24,886 bases of DNA from an uncultured archaeon (GCA_964458565.1 CAYWJO010000014.1:7360-32245); one strand, 5' to 3'. Shown: positions 7,526-14,630, numbered from the stretch's first letter. A program made the numbers and translations. The notes: a model not told the origin generated them from the sequence alone.

Positions 7526-8521
7526 TCATGACCTCCTTTTCAAATATCCTTGAGTATAAGCCCATTCGATAGCTCGTCCTAGACCTTCTCTCATTGTTAT
7601 TTTTGGTATCCACTTCAAGATTTCTTTGGCTTTCTTATTTGAATACCATCTCTCTTCTACTAACACTTGAATTGTTTGCATATGCCAAAGAAATGTGTTT
7701 CTCTTCCGATTCTTGTATAGACTCATCAGTCCTACACCAACCTTCGCTAGTATAGTTGGTACTCGGAATTTGGGTCCCTTGACTCCAAGACGATGAATAA
7801 GGAAATCAAGAAGTTCATTGTAACTCATAGGTTCGTCAGGACAAAGAATAATTGTATCGTTCAACGCTAGATCAGAATCAACTGCTTTGGAGAATCCATC
7901 TACAATATCATCAATATGAGCATACATGATATGTTTATCTCCAACTCGTGGGAAAGCAATGACCTCATCGTTATTCAATGCTTTTATCAATTCAAATGCA
8001 CTGTATAAATCACCCTCACCCATTACGCCAGTTGGTCTAAGAATTACATGAGGTAAACCTGATTCAGCTGAAATCTCACGGATCCTATCCTCTGCTATAA
8101 CTTTGCTCTTGCTATAATCAAACGCTGGATTAAGTTCTGTATTTTCATCACCCGGGGGATATTTGACCGAACCTATCGTTTCAGTCGTTGAACAATATAT
8201 GAAGCGCGTTACATTAGTACCAACACAGGCTTTCATCAAATTCGTAGTGCCTTCGATATTTACCGCGTACAATAGATCCTTGTCCGAGGGATAGAAATCA
8301 AAATAAGCTGCAAGATGGATTACCGCTTCAGCTTCATTCACACAGCTTCCAAGACTTTCTGAATCTAAGAGATTAGCAGTTACGCATTCTATACCTTCTG
8401 GGAGAACACTCGTGTTGGTTGATTCCCGAACCAGAGCTGCAACTTCATGCCCATCATCAATCAATCTTTGAACTAGCTTAAGTCCAATGAAACCTGTTGC
8501 TCCGGTCATAAGAATTCTCAT
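7526..8521 (-). CDS. NAD-dependent epimerase/dehydratase (extended SDR, 3-beta-HSD-like)
   Basis: MRILMTGATGFIG, VIHLAA, YCST, YSKSK (YxxxK), ILRPTGVMG. Start placed at ATG 8521; the ORF track gives 8557. Confidence 0.92.
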   Translation of the reverse strand: MRILMTGATGFIGLKLVQRLIDDGHEVAALVRESTNTSVLPEGIECVTANLLDSESLGSCVNEAEAVIHLAAYFDFYPSDKDLLYAVNIEGTTNLMKACVGTNVTRFIYCSTTETIGSVKYPPGDENTELNPAFDYSKSKVIAEDRIREISAESGLPHVILRPTGVMGEGDLYSAFELIKALNNDEVIAFPRVGDKHIMYAHIDDIVDGFSKAVDSDLALNDTIILCPDEPMSYNELLDFLIHRLGVKGPKFRVPTILAKVGVGLMSLYKNRKRNTFLWHMQTIQVLVEERWYSNKKAKEILKWIPKITMREGLGRAIEWAYTQGYLKRRS

Positions 8522-8580
8522 GCATCCATTCCTGATGATTTGATTTTTTCCCACCATTTATTTCTTATTACCAAATCTGA

Positions 8581-9318
8581 CTACTTGGGTAAAGCCTCAT
8601 CAATCTGAGTTAAAATCGCGCCAGCTCGTCCACTTAGATGATAATCCACGTATTCAGTAAGAAGTGTACTCTCAATATTGATTTCAATAAGAATTCCATC
8701 ATTATTTTTCACAACATATGGGAATGATGCTGCAGGCTGCACGAGACCGGAAGTGCCAATGATTAGACAGGTGTCTGCAACAGCTAGTTCAGAATACACT
8801 TGATTTATGATAATGTTATCCAAACTCTCTCCGAACCATACAACATCGGGTCTAAGATTATGATTGCAGTTTGGACAATGAAGGATTCCATTCGCAGGTT
8901 CTGAAAGACGAGATCTGTATTCACATTGTGTACACTTCACAGTCCATATATCTCCATGAACCTCAAGGATTTTTTCAGACCCAGCTCTGTGGTGTAGACC
9001 ATCAACGTTCTGAGTTATGATTCTCTTAAGGCGACCATCATTCTCCCACTTACTCAATATTAGGTGTGCAGAATTAGGTTCACATTTAGATATCAAATCC
9101 TGTCTCCAGGCATACCACTCCCATACCAACTTTGGATTTCTTGCAAAAGCAGATGGTGTCGCTAATTCCATAACATCATAATTTTTCCAGAGACCATCTT
9201 TTCCTCTGAATGTTGGTACATTTGATTCCTTTGATATTCCAGCTCCTGTGAGTGCAATCAGGTGTTTTGATGATGTAATTCGCTCTGCAACTAGTTCAAT
9301 TGTTTTCATCGTGTTCAT
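8581..9318 (-). CDS. cobB: NAD-dependent protein deacylase, sirtuin class III (CobB/NpdA-like)
   Basis: TGAGISKES, PTFRGKDGLW, WYAWR (YxxR), TQNVDGLH, HG, CTQC...CPNC zinc ribbon, LRPDVVWFGE, GTSGLVQPAA. Confidence 0.93.
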   Translation of the reverse strand: MNTMKTIELVAERITSSKHLIALTGAGISKESNVPTFRGKDGLWKNYDVMELATPSAFARNPKLVWEWYAWRQDLISKCEPNSAHLILSKWENDGRLKRIITQNVDGLHHRAGSEKILEVHGDIWTVKCTQCEYRSRLSEPANGILHCPNCNHNLRPDVVWFGESLDNIIINQVYSELAVADTCLIIGTSGLVQPAASFPYVVKNNDGILIEINIESTLLTEYVDYHLSGRAGAILTQIDEALPK

Positions 9319-9388
9319 ATTGCATCACATATTATGCCATTGTAGCTATGCTTATTAGTAGTCCACTGTTTAACAATTGTGATTTCAC

Positions 9389-9410
9389 TATAGTTTGTTA
9401 ACTATAAATA
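9389..9410 (+). promoter_or_regulatory. Inverted repeat TATAGTT-N4-AACTATA overlapping a TATA-like box (TATAAATA, 9403-9410) upstream of the HTH regulator
   Basis: Arms at 9389-9395 and 9400-9406. The TATA-like box begins 25 nt before ATG 9428, consistent with a short or leaderless archaeal transcript. It lies in the divergent cobB/regulator intergenic region. Confidence 0.5.
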
Positions 9411-9427
9411 TCTGAGGATGTTCAGTA

Positions 9428-9874
9428 ATGGCAAGTAGTACGAAACAGAAGAAGCGAAGAACTTGGTTAATGCCACAGGAAGTTGAAGTTTGGTACATTC
9501 TACCGAGCATACGAAGAGAACTCACTCGCATTCTTATCGCTAAGGATATTCCTCAGAAGACAATAGCAAAAATGCTAGGTGTGACTGAACCTGCTGTGAC
9601 ACAGTATAAATTAGAGAAGTCAACTGGTAGGTCTCGTGGAGACCAAGTTCAGATTCCAAAGAAACTTCTACCCGAAGTCGAGAAATCCGTAGAAATTATC
9701 ATCAAGAAATGGGAAAGCAAAGGTCCCGAAGAGAACGTGTATGAAGCAATGACGCGTGAAGTTAATAGACTCATCAGAGTACTTAGAGATGAAGGCATTT
9801 TATGTGATGTGCATCGAGAATATTGTGAAGGTGTTCATGAAGATTGTTCGGCATGCAAAGATGGAAGACGCTGA
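9428..9874 (+). CDS. Archaeal HTH transcriptional regulator (COG2522-like) with a C-terminal Cys/His metal-binding tail
   Basis: MPQEVEVWYILPSIRRELTRIL, HTH segment PQKTIAKMLGVTEPAVTQY, and C-terminal C126-x2-H-x3-C-x3-H-x2-C-x2-C143. Confidence 0.85.
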   Translation: MASSTKQKKRRTWLMPQEVEVWYILPSIRRELTRILIAKDIPQKTIAKMLGVTEPAVTQYKLEKSTGRSRGDQVQIPKKLLPEVEKSVEIIIKKWESKGPEENVYEAMTREVNRLIRVLRDEGILCDVHREYCEGVHEDCSACKDGRR

Positions 9875-9924
9875 ACGAAAATCCATAATACAATAATCTC
9901 ATAAGTTCATTATCTTAAGCTGTA

Positions 9925-9938
9925 TCCTCAAGTGAGGC
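9925..9938 (+). promoter_or_regulatory. Palindrome TCCTCA-AG-TGAGGC covering the RBS of the iscS-like gene
   Basis: CCTCA/TGAGG arms at 9926-9937, 8 nt before ATG 9946. The same motif occurs before iscU. Confidence 0.5.
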
Positions 9939-9945
9939 TACCCCC

Positions 9946-11157
9946 ATGGCTTATTTGGATAATGCTAATTCCACAAGAGTTGATGAAAGGGTAATTGAAG
10001 CAATGCTCCCTTATTTCCGAGAACATTATGGAACGGCAGGTCTGGAACTTAGTCATTCTCAAGATGTTTCAGCATTAACGGGTTTGGAGAATGCTAGACT
10101 AAGTATTGCGAAAACACTCAATGCGGATCCGAGAGAAATTATTTTCACTTCAGGTTCAACAGAATCAAACAATATCGCCATCAGAGGTACAGCACGAGCT
10201 AACAGAGATGATGGAAAACATATAATCACAAGCCCAATTGAAACTCAATCAGTTCTAAAATCATGTGAGAGGCTCGAAGAGGCAGGATATGAAATATCGG
10301 TCTTGGATGTTGACGAGTATGGCCTAGTTGATTTAAATCAACTAGAGCGAATCATTCGAAAAGATACTACTCTTGTTACGATTCAGCATGTTAATAGTGA
10401 GATAGGTACAGCTCAACCAATCGAGGATATTTCTAAGATAACGTCAGAAAGAGGGATTGTTTATCATACAGATGCCACACATTCATTTCTCAGAATGCCG
10501 ATTGATGTAGCAAAAATTGGAGTAAACCTGATTTCATTTGATGCACATCATATTCATGGACCCAAAGGCATTGGCGCTCTCTACATCAGGCGAAAAACCA
10601 GAGTACATCGTCTTCATGAGGGAGGCGATGAAGAAAGAAGATTACGACCTGGAATCGAAAATATTCCTGCTGCGGTAGGCTTTGGAAAAGCTATCGAGAT
10701 TTGGGGCGCTGATGAGAACAGCTATCTTCTATCACTTAGAAAATATATCGAGAGAAAAATGAAGGATAGGCTTACAGACTTCTCAATTACTGGTCACCCA
10801 GATAGGAGAGCTCCTCACATATATAGTATCATTGTGAGCTTTATTGAAGGAGAGTCTATGTTGGTTCAATTGGATATGGATGGATTCTCTGTTTCAACAG
10901 GTTCTGCGTGTTCATCCAAAACACTTCAAGGAAGTCACATTCTCAAGGCAATTGGTCTACCACCTGAACGGGCTCATGGTTCGATTCGTGTTTCGTTTTC
11001 GAGATACAATACAAAAGAAGAGATTGATGCCTTCATTGACGCATTCGTCCCCGCAGTTGAGAGACTTAGAGAATTCAGTCCATTAAGGGATGGTATGTAT
11101 TTTGCTAGTACAGATGATGACGATCATCATCACGATATTTCAGAGGATGAATGGTGA
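9946..11157 (+). CDS. iscS: IscS/NifS (MisS)-like cysteine desulfurase homologue lacking the PLP lysine; probable pseudo-desulfurase
   Basis: YLDNA, IIFTSGSTESNN, GPKGIGALY, STGSACSS (Cys322), SHILKAIG and GSIRVS place it in group I desulfurases. DAHHIHG replaces SxHKxxG. Confidence 0.9.
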   Translation: MAYLDNANSTRVDERVIEAMLPYFREHYGTAGLELSHSQDVSALTGLENARLSIAKTLNADPREIIFTSGSTESNNIAIRGTARANRDDGKHIITSPIETQSVLKSCERLEEAGYEISVLDVDEYGLVDLNQLERIIRKDTTLVTIQHVNSEIGTAQPIEDISKITSERGIVYHTDATHSFLRMPIDVAKIGVNLISFDAHHIHGPKGIGALYIRRKTRVHRLHEGGDEERRLRPGIENIPAAVGFGKAIEIWGADENSYLLSLRKYIERKMKDRLTDFSITGHPDRRAPHIYSIIVSFIEGESMLVQLDMDGFSVSTGSACSSKTLQGSHILKAIGLPPERAHGSIRVSFSRYNTKEEIDAFIDAFVPAVERLREFSPLRDGMYFASTDDDDHHHDISEDEW

Positions 11158-11232
11158 GTTAACAGCAATCAATCAAAAATTGAGATTCGCAAATGTGTAC
11201 TAAATGAAAACAACTAAATTACAACTCACGCG

Positions 11233-11246
11233 TCCTCACTTGAGGC
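11233..11246 (+). promoter_or_regulatory. Palindrome TCCTCA-CT-TGAGGC covering the RBS of iscU
   Basis: The core at 11234-11245 is the exact reverse complement of the 12-mer before iscS, and lies 9 nt before TTG 11255. Confidence 0.5.
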
Positions 11247-11254
11247 AATTCATA

Positions 11255-11632
11255 TTGTATAGTGAGAAAGTCAAGGAGAATTTCAAGAATCCTCAAAATA
11301 TGGGAAAAATCGAAGACCCAGATGGTGTTGGCACAGTTGGAAATCCTGTCTGTGGCGATATGATGACACTATACCTCAAAATTGATGATGGCATAATTGT
11401 AGACGCCAAAGTCGAAACCTTTGGTTGTGTCGCAGCAATTGCTACATCTTCGATGACGACGCAAATGGCGATTGGAAAAACAATAGAGGAAGCAAAGAAG
11501 ATATCAAGACAACAAGTTGCAGAAGCTCTTAATGGCCTTCCACCTCAAAAGATGCACTGTAGCAATCTTGCAGCGGATGCCTTATTGTTGGCAATTGAGG
11601 ACTATGAAAATAAAATGAAGGAACAAAAATAG
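11255..11632 (+). CDS. iscU: Fe-S cluster scaffold IscU/NifU-N (MisU)
   Basis: Probable TTG start giving MYSEKVKENFKNPQNMG. GNPVCGD, FGCVAAIATSS and LPPQKMHCSNLA retain all three Cys, the Asp and the His. The ORF track start at 11204 is probably too far upstream. Confidence 0.95.
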   Translation: MYSEKVKENFKNPQNMGKIEDPDGVGTVGNPVCGDMMTLYLKIDDGIIVDAKVETFGCVAAIATSSMTTQMAIGKTIEEAKKISRQQVAEALNGLPPQKMHCSNLAADALLLAIEDYENKMKEQK

Positions 11633-11725
11633 CACCAATTTCCGTTTTTTCATGCTATACAGTTATTTTGTACTTCTTGCCATAGAGCAAGAGAAAATTT
11701 ACATTTTGAGTTCTTCTTGATTCCA

Positions 11726-12478
11726 CTATGGAAATAGTTCTATTGCCAAAGGGATGCCTGCTAGCACAAGGATCACAATTGTGAGGCTAAGTTCTAACCA
11801 CTTCGGTTTTGTATTGATAGAGAAGGAGCTTCCAATCCGAGAACCTAATCCTGAACCAATCAGTACAGCGAAACCTTCTATTAGTAAGAGATGTTCATGA
11901 AACCAATAGAAACATACTCCTACGATTGATGTGAAAATAGCTGCGAATAGAGCTGTTGCAATCGCTTTATGCATATCGACATTCAGAATTCTCAAAAGAG
12001 GCACAAATAAGGATCCCTCGCTTCCTCCCCTCAAGCCAGTTAGTGTATTTGATACAAATGTACTAAGACACAACGCCGCAAAGGAGGGTTTCAAATGTTC
12101 TGAAAATGAAGGAGCCAAATGATTCATGTTCAAACCGATTACAGATAATATTGAAACCAAGACAAAAACAATAGGCAAAACTAGTGCTGTAGTTGCTAAT
12201 GAGAATGCAATCAATGTGCCCAGAACCGTACCAGTAGACCCTCCGAGAATCATATATGCTCCGTATCTAAGATCTATGTTCTTTTTCTGTGATGCTGCAC
12301 CGATTATGCTAGAAACTGGAAGGGCTAGCAAATTCATTCCAAATGCCGATATTAAAGTAAATCCTATCAAGTTTAGGAGTGGAATTCTTATCGAACCGCC
12401 ACCTATTCCTAAGAAACCACTAGCTAGTCCGGCTATGAAGCCAATGATGCCTAAGAGAAATAACAGTAGAAAGTCCAT
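11726..12478 (-). CDS. TSUP family (sulfite exporter TauE/SafE) transporter
   Basis: Two repeats: AGLASGFLGIGGGSIRIPLL and LTGLRGGSEGSLFVPLLRILNVDMHKAIATAL, about 8 TM. Start placed at ATG 12478; the ORF track gives 12514. Confidence 0.88.
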   Translation of the reverse strand: MDFLLLFLLGIIGFIAGLASGFLGIGGGSIRIPLLNLIGFTLISAFGMNLLALPVSSIIGAASQKKNIDLRYGAYMILGGSTGTVLGTLIAFSLATTALVLPIVFVLVSILSVIGLNMNHLAPSFSEHLKPSFAALCLSTFVSNTLTGLRGGSEGSLFVPLLRILNVDMHKAIATALFAAIFTSIVGVCFYWFHEHLLLIEGFAVLIGSGLGSRIGSSFSINTKPKWLELSLTIVILVLAGIPLAIELFP

Positions 12479-12779
12479 GCTCTTCATCTGTCTGAATCCT
12501 GTCAGAGTAATCAAGTGATAACTCTGGAAGGATTGAAGTGTGAGGTTGTTTAAGCATTGCTATATGACGCGTGTCAATTTTCAATGAGTAGAGAAAAATT
12601 GAGCTATATATCAGCAACAAAGATCACTAAATGTGCTTTAGATTCCAAAGGACGAAGAGAAATGGATGACAGGGGGTAGGAATCAATTCTTTTCATTATC
12701 TATTATGACAAAACGAATCGGGTATATTGGGCAAAGAGATAGCATTCAAATATCGTTCATATAGCTCTATAAATATCGA

Positions 12780-13484
12780 CTATGTCTTCAGATGTTGAAG
12801 CTCCTCCGGATTTGCTATGTGTCGCTTCATGGCCTTTTTGTCAAAGAAAGGGGTAAGTCGATTTAAACAAGCAACAACAATACACCTAGAGCAGAGAAAT
12901 CTTGCAAATCCCTCAAGAATCGTGTTTCTTTTGAGCTTGGTAACAAAATCATTCTCTGACACGGAGAAGAAAGTTCTCTTCTTTATCGTGATGAGACTTA
13001 CAACTTTATCGTAGATTCTCTTCGCTAGATCATTCTGAGGAAATTCGAGAGCAAATCTATGAGCCAGCCGAAGACTCAAACTAAACTCACAAGAAGGTTC
13101 AAAGTGACTTTTCTCCCATCGCTTTTCAATTCCGTCCTCAACAATCCCGATTTCCCAGAACTGATAGAATTCGTAGCCCTCGAGTTTTTGGTGATCACCA
13201 ACACGTTCGATTATTTTACCATTCATTCTATTCTCACCAAACCAATAGGACATACCTCGAGGTATATGTCCAGAACGTCCGCAGAAGCAATACCATCCAT
13301 TTATTGAGGTGTTCTCGATTATTCTCTTTATTTCCTTCGCGGTATCTAGATGACTGTGATCAACTACATGGGAAGGAACCCAGATGAGATGATTTTCACA
13401 ACGTAATTGTTTGCATAGCGCGCTTTCATATAGTATCTTATTTTTCCCTTTTATTTCTCCACATTCAGCACAGAAATCCATCAC
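12780..13484 (-). CDS. Hypothetical Cys/His-rich protein, possible zinc-finger protein
   Basis: 234-aa ORF with CAEC-x15-CKQLRCENH, YCFCGRSGH and LCSRC. No family recognised with confidence. Confidence 0.7.
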   Translation of the reverse strand: MMDFCAECGEIKGKNKILYESALCKQLRCENHLIWVPSHVVDHSHLDTAKEIKRIIENTSINGWYCFCGRSGHIPRGMSYWFGENRMNGKIIERVGDHQKLEGYEFYQFWEIGIVEDGIEKRWEKSHFEPSCEFSLSLRLAHRFALEFPQNDLAKRIYDKVVSLITIKKRTFFSVSENDFVTKLKRNTILEGFARFLCSRCIVVACLNRLTPFFDKKAMKRHIANPEELQHLKT

Positions 13485-13599
13485 TGCGTCCTCAATAGGA
13501 CAGAAACCACTAGCACGAATAAATGCTCCTGTTTTCTTCTTGATTCGAAAGCCTTTTTTTCAGAGTTCAAACTCTCTTTGCGAAGGAACGTGTGAAGTT

Positions 13600-14337
13600 T
13601 TGAACGGTCAGATTATTGTTGAGATAGACAAGCCACTAGCAACCGTAACGATTTCGAGACCTGATAAATTGAATTCAGTGACATGGGAGATGTTAAGGGC
13701 GTTCGATAAAGAAATCCAACAACTTCTTGAAAATCCCAATATATTGGGAATTGTATTCACAGGAGAAGGGGATAAAGCATTCACAGCTGGATTTGATCTT
13801 AATACTATAAAGGGTTTAAGGGGAGTTGATCATTACAACTTTTTCAAGTTATTAGATACTTCAATAGCGAGATTGAGAGAGAATGCGAGTTGTATAACTC
13901 TCGCATCATGCAATGGATATACAATAGGATTTGGAGCAATCCTTGCACTTGCCTGTGATTTTAGATTCTTTTCTGACAATGCATTGTTTCGATTACCTGA
14001 GATTGACCTTGATGTCTTCCCAGGAGCTGGAGCAGCCTCAGGACTCGTTCATCTTGTGGGACCAGCAAAGGCAAAAGATATTCTGATAACAGGGAGGAAG
14101 GTTCAGGCTAAAGAGGCATACTCACTTGGAATTGCAGATAGAATAGTGAAACAAGACCAGCTTTTCCAAGAGTCGAAGGTCTACTTGCGAGAGATTACTA
14201 CAAAGAATCGAAGTATCCTTCTCAACACAAAAAAGGCTATTGATGAAATGGTTGAAGGAGGAGTGAATCAGGATTCCAAGATTGAGACAGATTATTTTGA
14301 CCGTTGGTTGCAGGATAGACAAAAAGACACACCATAA
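13600..14337 (+). CDS. Enoyl-CoA hydratase/isomerase (crotonase superfamily)
   Basis: ATVTISRPDKLNSV, FTGEGDKAFTAGFDL, NGYTIGFGAILALACDFR, FRLPEIDL, LVGPAKAKDILITG. Probable TTG start at 13600; the ORF track start at 13411 overlaps the divergent gene. Confidence 0.9.
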   Translation: MNGQIIVEIDKPLATVTISRPDKLNSVTWEMLRAFDKEIQQLLENPNILGIVFTGEGDKAFTAGFDLNTIKGLRGVDHYNFFKLLDTSIARLRENASCITLASCNGYTIGFGAILALACDFRFFSDNALFRLPEIDLDVFPGAGAASGLVHLVGPAKAKDILITGRKVQAKEAYSLGIADRIVKQDQLFQESKVYLREITTKNRSILLNTKKAIDEMVEGGVNQDSKIETDYFDRWLQDRQKDTP

Positions 14338-14339
14338 GA

Positions 14340-14630
14340 GTAATCTACGAAACTCTACAATGAACATAGCTCCCTGATTACCATGTCCGTCAAATCGATT
14401 TTTATCTGAAATGTTACGGATATATTTATCGAGCATTTCATTTATCTGTTGAAAACTAACATCACCAAACTTACTCTTGACATCGAAGAACTCTCTCTCA
14501 AAGTACTCGAATCTAATTTCATCTTTTGCGATGCTGACTCGCTATGATTTGTCTTTTTAAAGAACTAGAATCCAGATTTGTCCTACATTTCTGGGATTAT
14601 ATTCAATTACATTTTCATAAGGTTCAACCA
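14340..14630 (-). pseudogene. Decayed HATPase_c (histidine kinase C-terminus) remnant, paralogous to 17108..18565
   Basis: Hand translation: WLNLM/(frameshift)ENVIEYNPRNVGQIWILVL*KDKS*RVSIAKD...FFDVKSKFGDVSFQQINEMLDKYIRNISDKNRFDGHGNQGAMFIVEF. It aligns with WLNLMENSVEHNPHDKIQIWV...VTIADD...LFDVNRRFGGVSLHQTKEIVDKYGGTISVHDRVPDTPNQGAKFVIQF. Stops are at 14557-14559 and 14542-14544. Confidence 0.8.

What the first reader, a model, noticed from the sequence alone, without database searches (positions are those of the whole stretch)
9428..12478. Candidate desulfurase-independent Fe-S assembly module: metal-binding regulator + pseudo-IscS + IscU, next to a TSUP transporter
Seen: three co-oriented genes (HTH, iscS-like, intact iscU) with no hscAB, fdx or iscA in the window, followed convergently by a TauE/SafE-family transporter. 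Established: two-gene S+U cassettes are the minimal (MIS) Fe-S machinery, and TSUP proteins are linked to transport of sulfur-containing anions. Inference: if the S subunit cannot mobilise sulfur from cysteine, clusters would be built from inorganic sulfur. The neighbouring TSUP could supply or export that sulfur, which would suit a sulfidic anaerobic habitat. The TSUP link is weak because the gene is on the opposite strand.
Basis: partly seen in the sequence, partly recalled or inferred. Interest (0 to 1): 0.75.

Follow-up and report, generated by a model that had tools for sequence, protein, structure and literature searches.

The report
Lysine-less IscS–IscU pair behind a regulator
An Asgard (Thorarchaeota) archaeon carries an iron-sulfur scaffold gene (IscU) paired with a "cysteine desulfurase" look-alike that has lost its cofactor lysine, a further lineage of an oddity already known from Archaeoglobus and Methanosarcina; the upstream regulator link is real, but the neighbouring sulfur-anion transporter is a chance neighbour.

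Summary
The four genes are there as described. The IscS-like protein has His where the PLP lysine should be. All 25 orthologues sampled in related genomes lack that lysine too (H/R/L/V), and all keep the loop cysteine. This clade is sister to a second lysine-less clade that carries the loop motif of Methanosarcina IscS1. It is distinct from the Archaeoglobus IscS2 type, which this genome also has. So "pseudo-IscS + IscU" holds, but the concept is published, and this scan met the same clade in other genomes.

The TSUP link fails. No relative has that transporter near IscS or IscU, and its orthologues lie elsewhere.

The regulator link holds in one direction only. The regulator sits 1-14 nt upstream of the IscS gene in nearly all relatives, yet it is class-wide and keeps the same place where the cassette is missing. 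Its promoter carries a conserved palindrome that also precedes iron-permease and metal-ATPase genes, which suggests a metal regulon.

"Desulfurase-independent" is shown for the module, not for the cell. A stand-alone SufS-type enzyme with intact Lys and Cys occurs in 79 of 81 genomes. No SufB/SMS scaffold was found in this genome.

Verdict: a new variant of a known kind, of moderate interest.

The parts
9350..9357 (+). TATA-like box GCTTATTA of the regulator promoter
   Evidence: The same gcttatat/gcttatta box sits at the equivalent place in the SIR2-REG intergenic DNA of relatives from several genera.
9370..9401 (+). Candidate operator: TTAACAATTGTGAT (9370-9383) with the inverted-repeat arm TTGTTAA (9395-9401)
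   Evidence: Inverted repeat found. The motif TT[CA]AC[AT]AT[AT]GT[GT]A[AT] occurs in 15 of 18 orthologous REG promoters (10 exact), against 1.5% / 0.47% of 2787 upstream regions.
9428..9874 (+). HTH regulator (REG), 148 aa: Cro/XRE-like helix-turn-helix plus a C-terminal Cys/His motif
   Evidence: It is single-copy in 71 of 81 class genomes.
9803..9856 (+). Codons of the metal-ligand motif C126-x2-H129-x3-C133-x3-H137-x2-C140-x2-C143
   Evidence: C126, H129, C140 and C143 are invariant in 28 relatives, while C133 varies. CxxH...CxxC is kept in 124 of 149 distant family representatives.
9946..11157 (+). Lysine-less IscS/MisS-like pseudo-desulfurase (paralogue A), 403 aa
10549..10551 (+). His202 codon (CAT) at the place of the PLP Schiff-base lysine (E. 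coli K206)
   Evidence: Orthologues have H, R, L or V here.
10909..10911 (+). Cys322 codon, the retained mobile-loop cysteine (E. coli C328)
   Evidence: Loop motif STGSACSS found in 59 of 61 clade A proteins; Cys at the C328 column in every aligned clade A protein; position.
11107..11154 (+). Acidic, His-rich C-terminal tail STDDDDHHHDISEDEW
   Evidence: The tail ...DHHHD(I/L)PEDDW is conserved in clade A. It is absent from paralogue B and from the sister clade.
11255..11632 (+). IscU scaffold (ORF opens at 11204; probable start TTG 11255)
   Evidence: The best solved relative is A. fulgidus NifU-1/IscU, 4eb5_C, at 178.7 bits.
9926..9937 (+). Palindrome CCTCAAGTGAGG over the iscS ribosome-binding site; private to this genome
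   Evidence: Exact match. It is not conserved in 25 orthologous loci and forms only a weak hairpin (z -0.55).
11234..11245 (+). Palindrome CCTCACTTGAGG 9 nt before the probable iscU start; only its 3' half (Shine-Dalgarno GTGAGG) is conserved
11726..12514 (-). TSUP/TauE-family membrane protein; a convergent neighbour judged unrelated to the cassette
   Evidence: Pfam TauE, 108 bits. The adjacency was found in no relative.

Best explanation
This is an accessory, regulated MIS-type Fe-S scaffold cassette of a Thorarchaeial (Asgard) archaeon.

Shown: the IscS-like subunit cannot do PLP chemistry. The Schiff-base lysine is gone and its position drifts among H, R, L and V. The phosphate-binding Ser is a fixed Asp, and the stacking His and Asn155 are lost. 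The protein is nevertheless conserved at full length, with an invariant loop cysteine, the substrate Arg and a clade-specific acidic His-rich tail.

Inferred from the A. fulgidus IscS2-IscU structures: it forms an (IscS-IscU)2 complex in which the loop Cys acts as fourth ligand, or as a persulfide hand-over point, for the cluster growing on IscU. Sulfur then comes from outside the pair. The source could be free sulfide, or it could act in trans: the class-wide SufS-type desulfurase and/or the TusA/DsrE carriers that are encoded beside the second lysine-less pair (paralogue B).

Shown: the cassette is inserted between a class-wide Cys/His-motif HTH regulator and an enoyl-CoA hydratase gene, and it starts 1-14 nt after the regulator's stop codon in relatives.

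Inferred: it is co-transcribed with the regulator. The regulator binds the conserved palindrome in its own promoter, which also precedes FTR1 iron-permease and P1B metal-ATPase genes. This would tie cassette expression to metal status.

The TSUP gene is a chance neighbour.
For: Lysine loss and other pocket changes; 25 of 25 orthologues and 61 clade proteins are lysine-less. Scores fall below the equivalog cut-offs. Cys loop, Arg and tail are conserved.

Phylogeny: clade A is sister to a 54-member lysine-less clade (K>T/I/N/V) with the loop STGSACFS, the motif of M. acetivorans IscS1 (PMC7585200). In that clade the gene follows tusA and dsrE.

Precedent: A. fulgidus IscS has Asp at the lysine, has no activity and gives a Cys ligand to the IscU cluster (PMC7585200; PMC13066941).

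Paralogue B in this genome and in 24 of 24 copies checked has the A. fulgidus SSND motif. Its best solved match is 4eb5_A at 485 bits. In the two loci with upstream DNA (L038, L039) tusA lies upstream, with dsrE as well in L038.

Genome inventory: two IscU genes only, no SufB/D, no IscA, one ApbC/Nbp35-like carrier. A single-contig relative (G056) also lacks SufB.

Linkage: the regulator is upstream in 25 of 25 (one truncated), with gaps of 1-14 nt in 22. IscU lies downstream in 17, is undetermined in 4 at contig ends, and is absent within 9 kb in 4.

Operator. The same motif lies upstream of FTR1 and the HMA-ATPase here and of their orthologues in other genera (3 of 8 exact, 5 of 8 with at most 1 mismatch; P about 6e-6 and 4e-8 against background).
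Against: There is no biochemistry for this clade. PLP-free status, complex formation and the ligand role are inferred by homology. Paralogue A occurs in only 26 of 81 sampled genomes, so it is dispensable in the class. Four relatives have IscS-A with no IscU within 9 kb, so the S subunit may have a role apart from IscU. That REG binds the palindrome is inferred only from its position in REG's own promoter; another factor could bind it. The motif is AT-rich, and the orthologous promoters compared are not fully independent. The regulator keeps its place where the cassette is absent, so its main targets may be other genes. The C-H-C-C motif could be a structural zinc site rather than a sensor. 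No expression data could be obtained.
Confidence: 0.65

Rival explanations
1. One reading: the S-U pair builds clusters from inorganic sulfur that the neighbouring TSUP transporter supplies or exports.
For: The TSUP gene lies 93 nt beyond iscU, in convergent orientation. It belongs to the TauE/SafE family. No SufB/D scaffold was found in the genome.
Against: No TSUP was found in the flanks (about 2 to 9 kb downstream) of 14 relatives. The 24 TSUP orthologues are never within 1.5 kb of IscS, IscU or the 234-aa neighbour gene, and they occur mostly in a genus without paralogue A. In five genomes that have both genes they lie on different contigs. In several relatives IscU is followed directly by the enoyl-CoA hydratase gene.
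Confidence: 0.04
2. Cysteine is still the sulfur source. The class-wide stand-alone SufS-type desulfurase makes the persulfide and passes it, directly or through TusA/DsrE, to Cys322 of IscS-A or to IscU. The module would then be served by a desulfurase in trans, not be desulfurase-independent. This is a variant of the best explanation, not exclusive with it.
For: The SufS-family protein at C25:37419-38660 scores 427.8 bits and carries HK and RxGxHC. Orthologues occur in 79 of 81 genomes at 61-82% identity, and both motifs are kept in 30 of 30. It has no sufE, sufU or sufBCD next to it, so it needs an acceptor encoded elsewhere. TusA, DsrE and DsrH genes are present.
Against: There is no gene linkage between SufS and either IscS/IscU pair. 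SufS-type enzymes also serve tRNA thiolation and cofactor synthesis, which alone would explain their conservation. The REG operator motif is absent from 30 SufS loci.
Confidence: 0.35
3. IscS-A is still a catalytic desulfurase that uses another residue or a non-covalently bound cofactor.
For: Asp176, His201, Thr72, Arg348 and the Cys loop are retained.
Against: The lysine position drifts among H, R, L and V within the clade, so no single replacement nucleophile is conserved. Ser203 is a fixed Asp, which would repel the PLP phosphate. His104 and Asn155 are lost. The characterised lysine-less relative is inactive (PMC7585200).
Confidence: 0.03
4. The regulator's position is only inherited synteny. 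It controls other genes, such as the downstream enoyl-CoA hydratase, the divergent SIR2 deacylase or metal transporters. Its Cys/His motif would be a structural zinc site, and the cassette merely landed in its operon.
For: REG is present in 71 of 81 genomes, against 26 for the cassette. The SIR2|REG>ECH arrangement occurs without the cassette in L009 and L010. The wider family (975 representatives) is common in archaea, and one informative distant locus has no Fe-S neighbours. REG is never next to paralogue B.
Against: The insertion point is the same in all 25 relatives, with gaps of 1-14 nt in 22 of the 25 relatives, so the cassette is in practice under REG's promoter whatever REG senses. The shared promoter motif links REG to iron-permease and metal-ATPase genes.
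Confidence: 0.3

Closest known systems
Archaeoglobus fulgidus IscS2-IscU (PDB 4EB5, 4EB7, 4HVK; D199K variant 4R5F)
   Same: An IscS-fold protein without the PLP lysine, with the loop cysteine kept, encoded next to an intact IscU and without chaperones or ferredoxin. The window's IscU has this complex's IscU as its best solved match (178.7 bits). The reported function is no desulfurase activity, with the Cys serving as a cluster ligand.
   Different: That type has a fixed Asp (SSND), keeps His104 and Asn155, and has lost Arg354. It corresponds to this genome's other paralogue, B (485 bits against 330 bits for the window protein). The window protein has a drifting residue (H/R/L/V), the changes S203D, H104T and N155S, keeps Arg354, and adds an acidic His-rich tail.
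Methanosarcina acetivorans IscS1/IscU1 (MA0808/MA0807, isc1 cluster) and its clade
   Same: It is stated to lack the catalytic lysine and PLP residues (PMC7585200). The clade carrying its loop motif STGSACFS is the sister group of the window's clade, with joint support 1.0, and shares Q183H.
   Different: Identity is 48-51%. The sister clade has K>T, H104D and N155Q, and has no C-terminal tail. Its gene follows tusA and dsrE, and its IscU is fused to an FeS_assembly_P domain. The assignment of MA0808 to that clade rests on the motif and the taxa, not on its sequence, which was not on hand.
MIS, the minimal iron-sulfur system (MisS/MisU; Garcia et al., as summarised in PMC13066941)
   Same: A two-gene S+U cassette with no carrier or chaperone. 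It is archaeal, and the review states that such minimal systems can use sulfide.
   Different: MisS is defined as a cysteine desulfurase, whereas here the S subunit lacks the catalytic residues. Here the cassette also sits in an operon behind a regulator.
IscR (Rrf2-family [2Fe-2S] regulator leading the bacterial isc operon)
   Same: It is the first gene of the operon encoding IscS and IscU, and it has three Cys plus one His as invariant candidate ligands (the IscR ligand set is from general knowledge). A palindromic site lies in its own promoter.
   Different: There is no Rrf2 match. The HTH is Cro/XRE-like and the fold has no solved relative. No cluster binding is shown. The regulator also occurs without the cassette.

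Membership tests
IscS/NifS group I cysteine desulfurase (functional enzyme) | Class V aminotransferase fold | tested here: met
   PF00266, 245.9 bits, over residues 3-363.
IscS/NifS group I cysteine desulfurase (functional enzyme) | PLP Schiff-base lysine in the SxHK motif (E. coli K206) | tested here: not met
   The residue is His202 (DAHH). All 25 orthologues and 61 clade proteins have H, R, L or V.
IscS/NifS group I cysteine desulfurase (functional enzyme) | Other PLP-pocket residues (H104, N155, Q183, S203) | tested here: not met
   These are Thr100, Ser151, His179 and Asp199. Only T76, D180 and H205 are kept.
IscS/NifS group I cysteine desulfurase (functional enzyme) | Mobile-loop persulfide cysteine (SSGSAC) | tested here: met
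   Cys322 lies in STGSACSS, a motif found in 59 of 61 clade A proteins; the Cys column is filled in all.
IscS/NifS group I cysteine desulfurase (functional enzyme) | Score above the curated equivalog cut-off | tested here: not met
   NifS 404.9 against 530.75; IscS 366.9 against 643.2.
Lysine-less IscS of the A. fulgidus IscS2 type | Asp at the lysine position (SSND), with His104 and Asn155 kept and Arg354 lost | tested here: not met
   The window protein differs at each of these positions. The pattern fits paralogue B instead.
Lysine-less IscS of the A. fulgidus IscS2 type | Forms an (IscS-IscU)2 complex in which the loop Cys ligates the [2Fe-2S] cluster; no desulfurase activity | not testable with these tools
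   Only the conserved Cys and the gene adjacency to IscU are seen.
M. acetivorans IscS1-type lysine-less clade | Loop STGSACFS, K206T, tusA-dsrE upstream, IscU fused to FeS_assembly_P | tested here: not met
   The window protein has STGSACSS and His at the lysine position, REG upstream and a single-domain IscU. The relationship is sister clade, not membership.
MIS (minimal S+U Fe-S system) | Adjacent IscS-like and IscU-like genes with no hscAB, fdx or A-type carrier | tested here: met
   Window ORFs. No Fe-S_biosyn (IscA) hit in the genome. hscAB and fdx were not searched genome-wide.
IscU scaffold | Three cluster cysteines plus Asp39 and His105 equivalents, and an LPPVK-like motif | tested here: met
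   The motifs are GNPVCGD, FGCVAA and LPPQKMHCS. NifU_N scores 156.9 bits, and NifU_clost 184.8 against a cut-off of 187.9.
IscR / Rrf2 cluster-sensing regulators | Rrf2 winged-helix domain | tested here: not met
   No Rrf2 hit appeared among the Pfam matches of 28 family members, only Cro/XRE-type HTH families.
IscR / Rrf2 cluster-sensing regulators | Binds an Fe-S cluster through conserved Cys/His | not testable with these tools
   C126, H129, C140 and C143 are invariant. The identity of any bound metal is unknown.
TSUP / TauE-SafE transporters (as a functional partner of the cassette) | Conserved linkage to the IscS/IscU genes | tested here: not met
   It is a family member by Pfam, but no relative shows the adjacency.

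The most novel reading that the evidence does not exclude
Many Thorarchaeia, including this genome and a single-contig relative, lack any SufB/SMS scaffold. They would build all their Fe-S clusters on two MIS pairs whose S subunits are both pseudo-desulfurases. One pair is a near-universal housekeeping pair fed by a cis-encoded TusA/DsrE relay. The other is this accessory pair, switched on by a new Cys/His-motif HTH metalloregulator that also controls iron uptake (FTR1) and a P1B metal ATPase. That arrangement would be an Asgard counterpart of the bacterial housekeeping/stress split between ISC and SUF with IscR/Fur control. The acidic His-rich tail of IscS-A would serve as the iron-delivery arm.
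Probability: 0.2. Interest if true: 0.65.

Novelty: new variant of a known kind. Interest (0 to 1): 0.42.

Why it matters
Fe-S cluster assembly in the archaeal relatives of eukaryotes is poorly described, and MIS is the least studied assembly system. In Thorarchaeia both IscS-type paralogues are dead enzymes, and SufB is often not found. This sharpens the open question of where MIS scaffolds get their sulfur, and it names three concrete candidates: sulfide, a trans-acting SufS, or a TusA/DsrE relay. It also flags a systematic annotation error, because public records call these proteins "cysteine desulfurase". Finally, it gives a testable candidate for an archaeal metal-responsive regulator, with a defined operator and a first regulon sketch.

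Tried and rejected
TSUP as a partner: rejected by the neighbourhood surveys.

The CCTCAnnTGAGG palindromes at both ribosome-binding sites: they are real in this genome but not conserved in 25 orthologous loci. Only the Shine-Dalgarno half is conserved, and the hairpins are weak (z -0.55 and -1.53). They are left unexplained.

Fold of the regulator: Foldseek against PDB gave nothing at E <= 0.001. VIA-align wide gave a best Z of 5.8 to unrelated helical proteins. A profile search of PDB sequences hit only designed helical repeats.

Distant members of the regulator family: three context look-ups gave one informative locus, which has no Fe-S genes.

Operator motif near paralogue B, SufS or SufB loci: no consistent hits.

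Rfam on 8500-14500: no match. The bacterial promoter and terminator scans were uninformative for an archaeon.

DrsE_2 (PF13686) search of the genome was negative, but a DsrE/DsrH pair was then found by Pfam on C23.

Complex prediction was not used. An IscS-IscU pair would pass merely by likeness to solved structures.


Full report
WHAT IS THERE. The window holds, on the + strand, a 148-aa ORF (9428-9874), a 403-aa ORF (9946-11157) and a 142-aa ORF (11204-11632). A convergent 262-aa ORF follows at 11726-12514. Pfam assigns Aminotran_5, NifU_N and TauE to the last three and nothing to the first. Relatives of the first ORF give weak Cro/XRE-type HTH matches. The other window ORFs of 110 aa or more that were scanned encode a protease, flavin oxidoreductase, lactate permease, epimerase, SIR2, enoyl-CoA hydratase (ECH), DUF3160, two-component proteins and an amino-acid kinase. 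None is hscA, hscB, fdx or iscA. Names given to homologues place the organism in Thorarchaeota, an Asgard group.

THE S SUBUNIT IS A PSEUDO-DESULFURASE. I aligned the protein without gaps to solved IscS proteins and to E. coli IscS (taken from NC_000913.3).
- His202 stands where the PLP lysine (K206) should be.
- Thr100 replaces His104, Ser151 replaces Asn155, His179 replaces Gln183 and Asp199 replaces Ser203.
- Thr72, Asp176, His201, Cys322 (C328) and Arg348 (R354) are kept.
- The protein scores below every NCBIfam equivalog cut-off.

In a sample of 81 genomes of the class, 25 others have an orthologue at 62-71% identity. Every one lacks the lysine, with H, R, L or V in its place. Asp is fixed at position 203, positions 104 and 155 vary, and the Cys and Arg are invariant. 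The same holds for 61 clade members in the protein collection. Drift at the lysine position argues against any substitute catalytic residue. Full-length conservation, the invariant Cys loop and a clade-specific tail (...DHHHD(I/L)PEDDW) argue for a retained non-catalytic function.

PLACE AMONG KNOWN LYSINE-LESS IscS PROTEINS. Published work says that A. fulgidus IscS has Asp at the lysine, has no desulfurase activity and provides a Cys ligand to the [2Fe-2S] cluster on IscU. It also says that M. acetivorans IscS1 lacks the lysine (PMC7585200; PMC13066941).

This genome has that A. fulgidus type as a second paralogue, B, at C2:237527-238321, cut off by the contig end. It has the motif SSND, and a full-length relative matches 4eb5_A at 485 bits. 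All 24 copies of B that I checked have SSND.

The window's paralogue A is a different lineage. Its nearest non-orthologues (48-51% identity) form a 54-member clade with K>T/I/N/V, H104D and N155Q. That clade carries the loop STGSACFS, which is the motif tabulated for M. acetivorans IscS1, and it includes Methanolobus and Methanomethylovorans proteins. A FastTree LG+gamma tree of 122 sequences puts clade A and this clade together with support 1.0, apart from lysine-bearing proteins and from B. Lysine loss therefore probably predates their split. In the sister clade the gene follows tusA and a dsrE-like gene, and its IscU is fused to an FeS_assembly_P domain.

LINKAGE.
- Regulator (REG): it lies directly upstream of IscS-A in all 25 relatives (one copy is truncated). 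The stop-to-start gap is 1-14 nt in 22 of them and 71 nt here. SIR2 is divergent on the other side.
- IscU: it lies downstream in 17 relatives, usually 53-97 nt away, and in four cases after a larger gap, in several an unrelated inserted gene. In 4 it is undetermined because the contig ends, and in 4 it is absent within 9 kb.
- TSUP: none of 14 relatives with long flanks has a TSUP there. IscU is often followed directly by ECH. TSUP orthologues exist in 24 genomes, mostly in a genus that lacks IscS-A. They are never within 1.5 kb of IscS, IscU or the 234-aa neighbour, and they lie on other contigs where both genes occur. The TSUP link is refuted as a conserved feature.

THE REGULATOR. REG is single-copy in 71 of 81 genomes, in 24 of 24 high-quality genomes and in all 17 genera. 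It therefore also occurs in about 45 genomes without IscS-A. There it sits as SIR2|REG>ECH. It is never next to paralogue B. So the IscS-A/IscU-A cassette occupies one fixed slot between REG and ECH, and REG is not a dedicated cassette part.

REG has an N-terminal helix-turn-helix and invariant C126, H129, C140 and C143. C133 varies. The AlphaFold model is all-helical (pLDDT 84.5) and has no solved relative. A profile search finds 975 cluster representatives, mostly about 120 aa long. Of the best 149, 124 keep CxxH...CxxC. This is a wide archaeal family with three Cys and one His as candidate metal ligands. The identity of the metal is unknown.

A CONSERVED OPERATOR AND A REGULON SKETCH. Downstream of a TATA-like box, REG promoters from many genera carry one or two copies of the palindrome TT[CA]AC[AT]AT[AT]GT[GT]A[AT], for example TTCACTATTGTGAA. 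The copy in this window is at 9370-9383. It occurs in 15 of 18 REG promoters, exactly in 10. By comparison, 1.5% of 2787 upstream regions of this genome have it with at most one mismatch, and 0.47% have it exactly.

In this genome the exact motif also lies 13-40 nt upstream of genes for an FTR1 iron permease, an HMA-domain P-type ATPase, a DUF255 thioredoxin-like protein and an aldo/keto reductase. It also lies 17 nt upstream of an HtrA-like protease gene. Upstream of the FTR1 and ATPase orthologues in other genera it recurs in 5 of 8 promoters, exactly in 3. Binomial P values are about 4e-8 and 6e-6, although these promoters are not fully independent. The motif was not found consistently near paralogue B, SufS or SufB. 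That REG binds this site is an inference from its place in REG's own promoter. If it does, the cassette is expressed as part of a metal-homeostasis regulon.

IS THE CELL DESULFURASE-FREE? No.
- The genome (3.73 Mb, 93% complete) has two IscU genes, both paired with lysine-less IscS proteins.
- It has no SufB/D hit and no A-type carrier, and it has one ApbC/Nbp35-like carrier.
- SufB is found in 34 of 81 class genomes, but intact in only 5, plus one fragment, of the 25 relatives that carry IscS-A. It is missing from a single-contig relative, G056. This is a trend only, because related genomes are not independent.
- A stand-alone SufS-family protein (C25:37419-38660, 427.8 bits) has HK and RxGxHC. 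Orthologues occur in 79 of 81 genomes at 61-82% identity, and both motifs are kept in 30 of 30.
- TusA (two copies), DsrE and DsrH genes exist. In relatives, tusA and dsrE directly precede paralogue B. The tusA at the start of contig C91 is 75% identical to such a copy, so the same operon is probably split here by an assembly gap.

The module lacks its own desulfurase. Whether its sulfur comes from sulfide or from cysteine through SufS and carriers remains open.

MECHANISM.
Shown: the loss of the PLP residues, the retained Cys and Arg, the fixed operon slot, the shared promoter motif and the genome inventory.
Inferred: an A. fulgidus-like (IscS-IscU)2 complex with Cys322 as ligand or persulfide relay, external sulfur, and control by REG.
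Speculative: the His-rich acidic tail binds iron, and REG senses a cluster or a metal through its C-H-C-C site.

NOVELTY. The concept of a lysine-less IscS acting as a scaffold partner is published. This scan has already reported the same Thorarchaeial clade and the tusA-dsrE-linked cassettes on other genomes. This report adds the following:
- the refutation of the TSUP link;
- the class-wide counts;
- the sister relation to the IscS1-type clade;
- the finding that the regulator is class-wide, with a conserved operator shared with metal-transport genes;
- the universal SufS-type enzyme, which limits the "desulfurase-independent" claim.

My verdict is a new variant of a known kind, of moderate interest.

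Noticed in passing
L048:4748-5527 (own genome C2:236747-237526, minus strand): The IscU of the second pair (paralogue B) is 259 aa long. It is a NifU_N domain fused to a thioredoxin-reductase-like pyridine-nucleotide domain covering residues 146-257. This could be a built-in electron source for cluster assembly.
   Followed up: partly
L038:1090-3277 (G006) and L065:113-361 (own contig C91): In one relative (G006, L038) tusA and a dsrE-like gene directly precede the Asp-type lysine-less IscS-B and IscU-B; in another (L039) only tusA was found upstream. The own genome's IscS-B is cut by the end of contig C2. The tusA at the start of contig C91 is 75% identical to the relative's copy, so the operon is probably split by an assembly gap.
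   Followed up: partly
L047:1635-2849 (own genome C5:56634-57848): A second SufS-family protein (247 bits to the sufS model) appears to lack the PLP lysine (ISANTG..FMAPPG) while keeping a Cys in RSGFLCA. It may be a third pseudo-desulfurase in one genome.
   Followed up: no
G003:C7:34950-36074 and eight similar places listed: Several relatives, but not this genome, have IscS-like domains inside open frames of 743-782 aa, which suggests fusion proteins. The partner domain and the state of the lysine were not examined.
   Followed up: no
L051:10314-10484 and G056:C1:1727808-1727936: In the single-contig relative G056 only the C-terminal 57 residues of the regulator lie next to IscS-A. An N-terminal piece matches 1.38 Mb away. 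This is either a rearrangement or an assembly artefact.
   Followed up: no
window 12780-13484 (-): A 234-aa ORF with a Cys-rich N-terminus (CxxC...C...C) has no Pfam family. It is co-oriented with the TSUP gene, overlaps the longest reading of the ECH start, and is absent next to TSUP orthologues in relatives.
   Followed up: partly
own genome C49:8524-9408, C21:26562-29051, C14:62148-64256, C6:63740-64738, C21:6718-7647 (L067-L073): Exact copies of the REG-promoter palindrome sit just upstream of genes for an FTR1 iron permease, an HMA P-type ATPase, a DUF255 thioredoxin-like protein, an aldo/keto reductase and an HtrA-like protease. Orthologous FTR1 and ATPase promoters in other genera share it.
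   Followed up: partly
L063:5298-7842 and L064:5285-7817: In Methanolobus and in a metagenome contig, the sister lysine-less IscS (K>T) lies in the gene order tusA, dsrE-like, iscS, then iscU fused to FeS_assembly_P.
   Followed up: partly
G045:C62:15948-16157: The only SufB-like match in this IscS-A-bearing relative is a 103-aa open frame (59 bits). It may be a remnant of a lost SMS/SUF scaffold.
   Followed up: no
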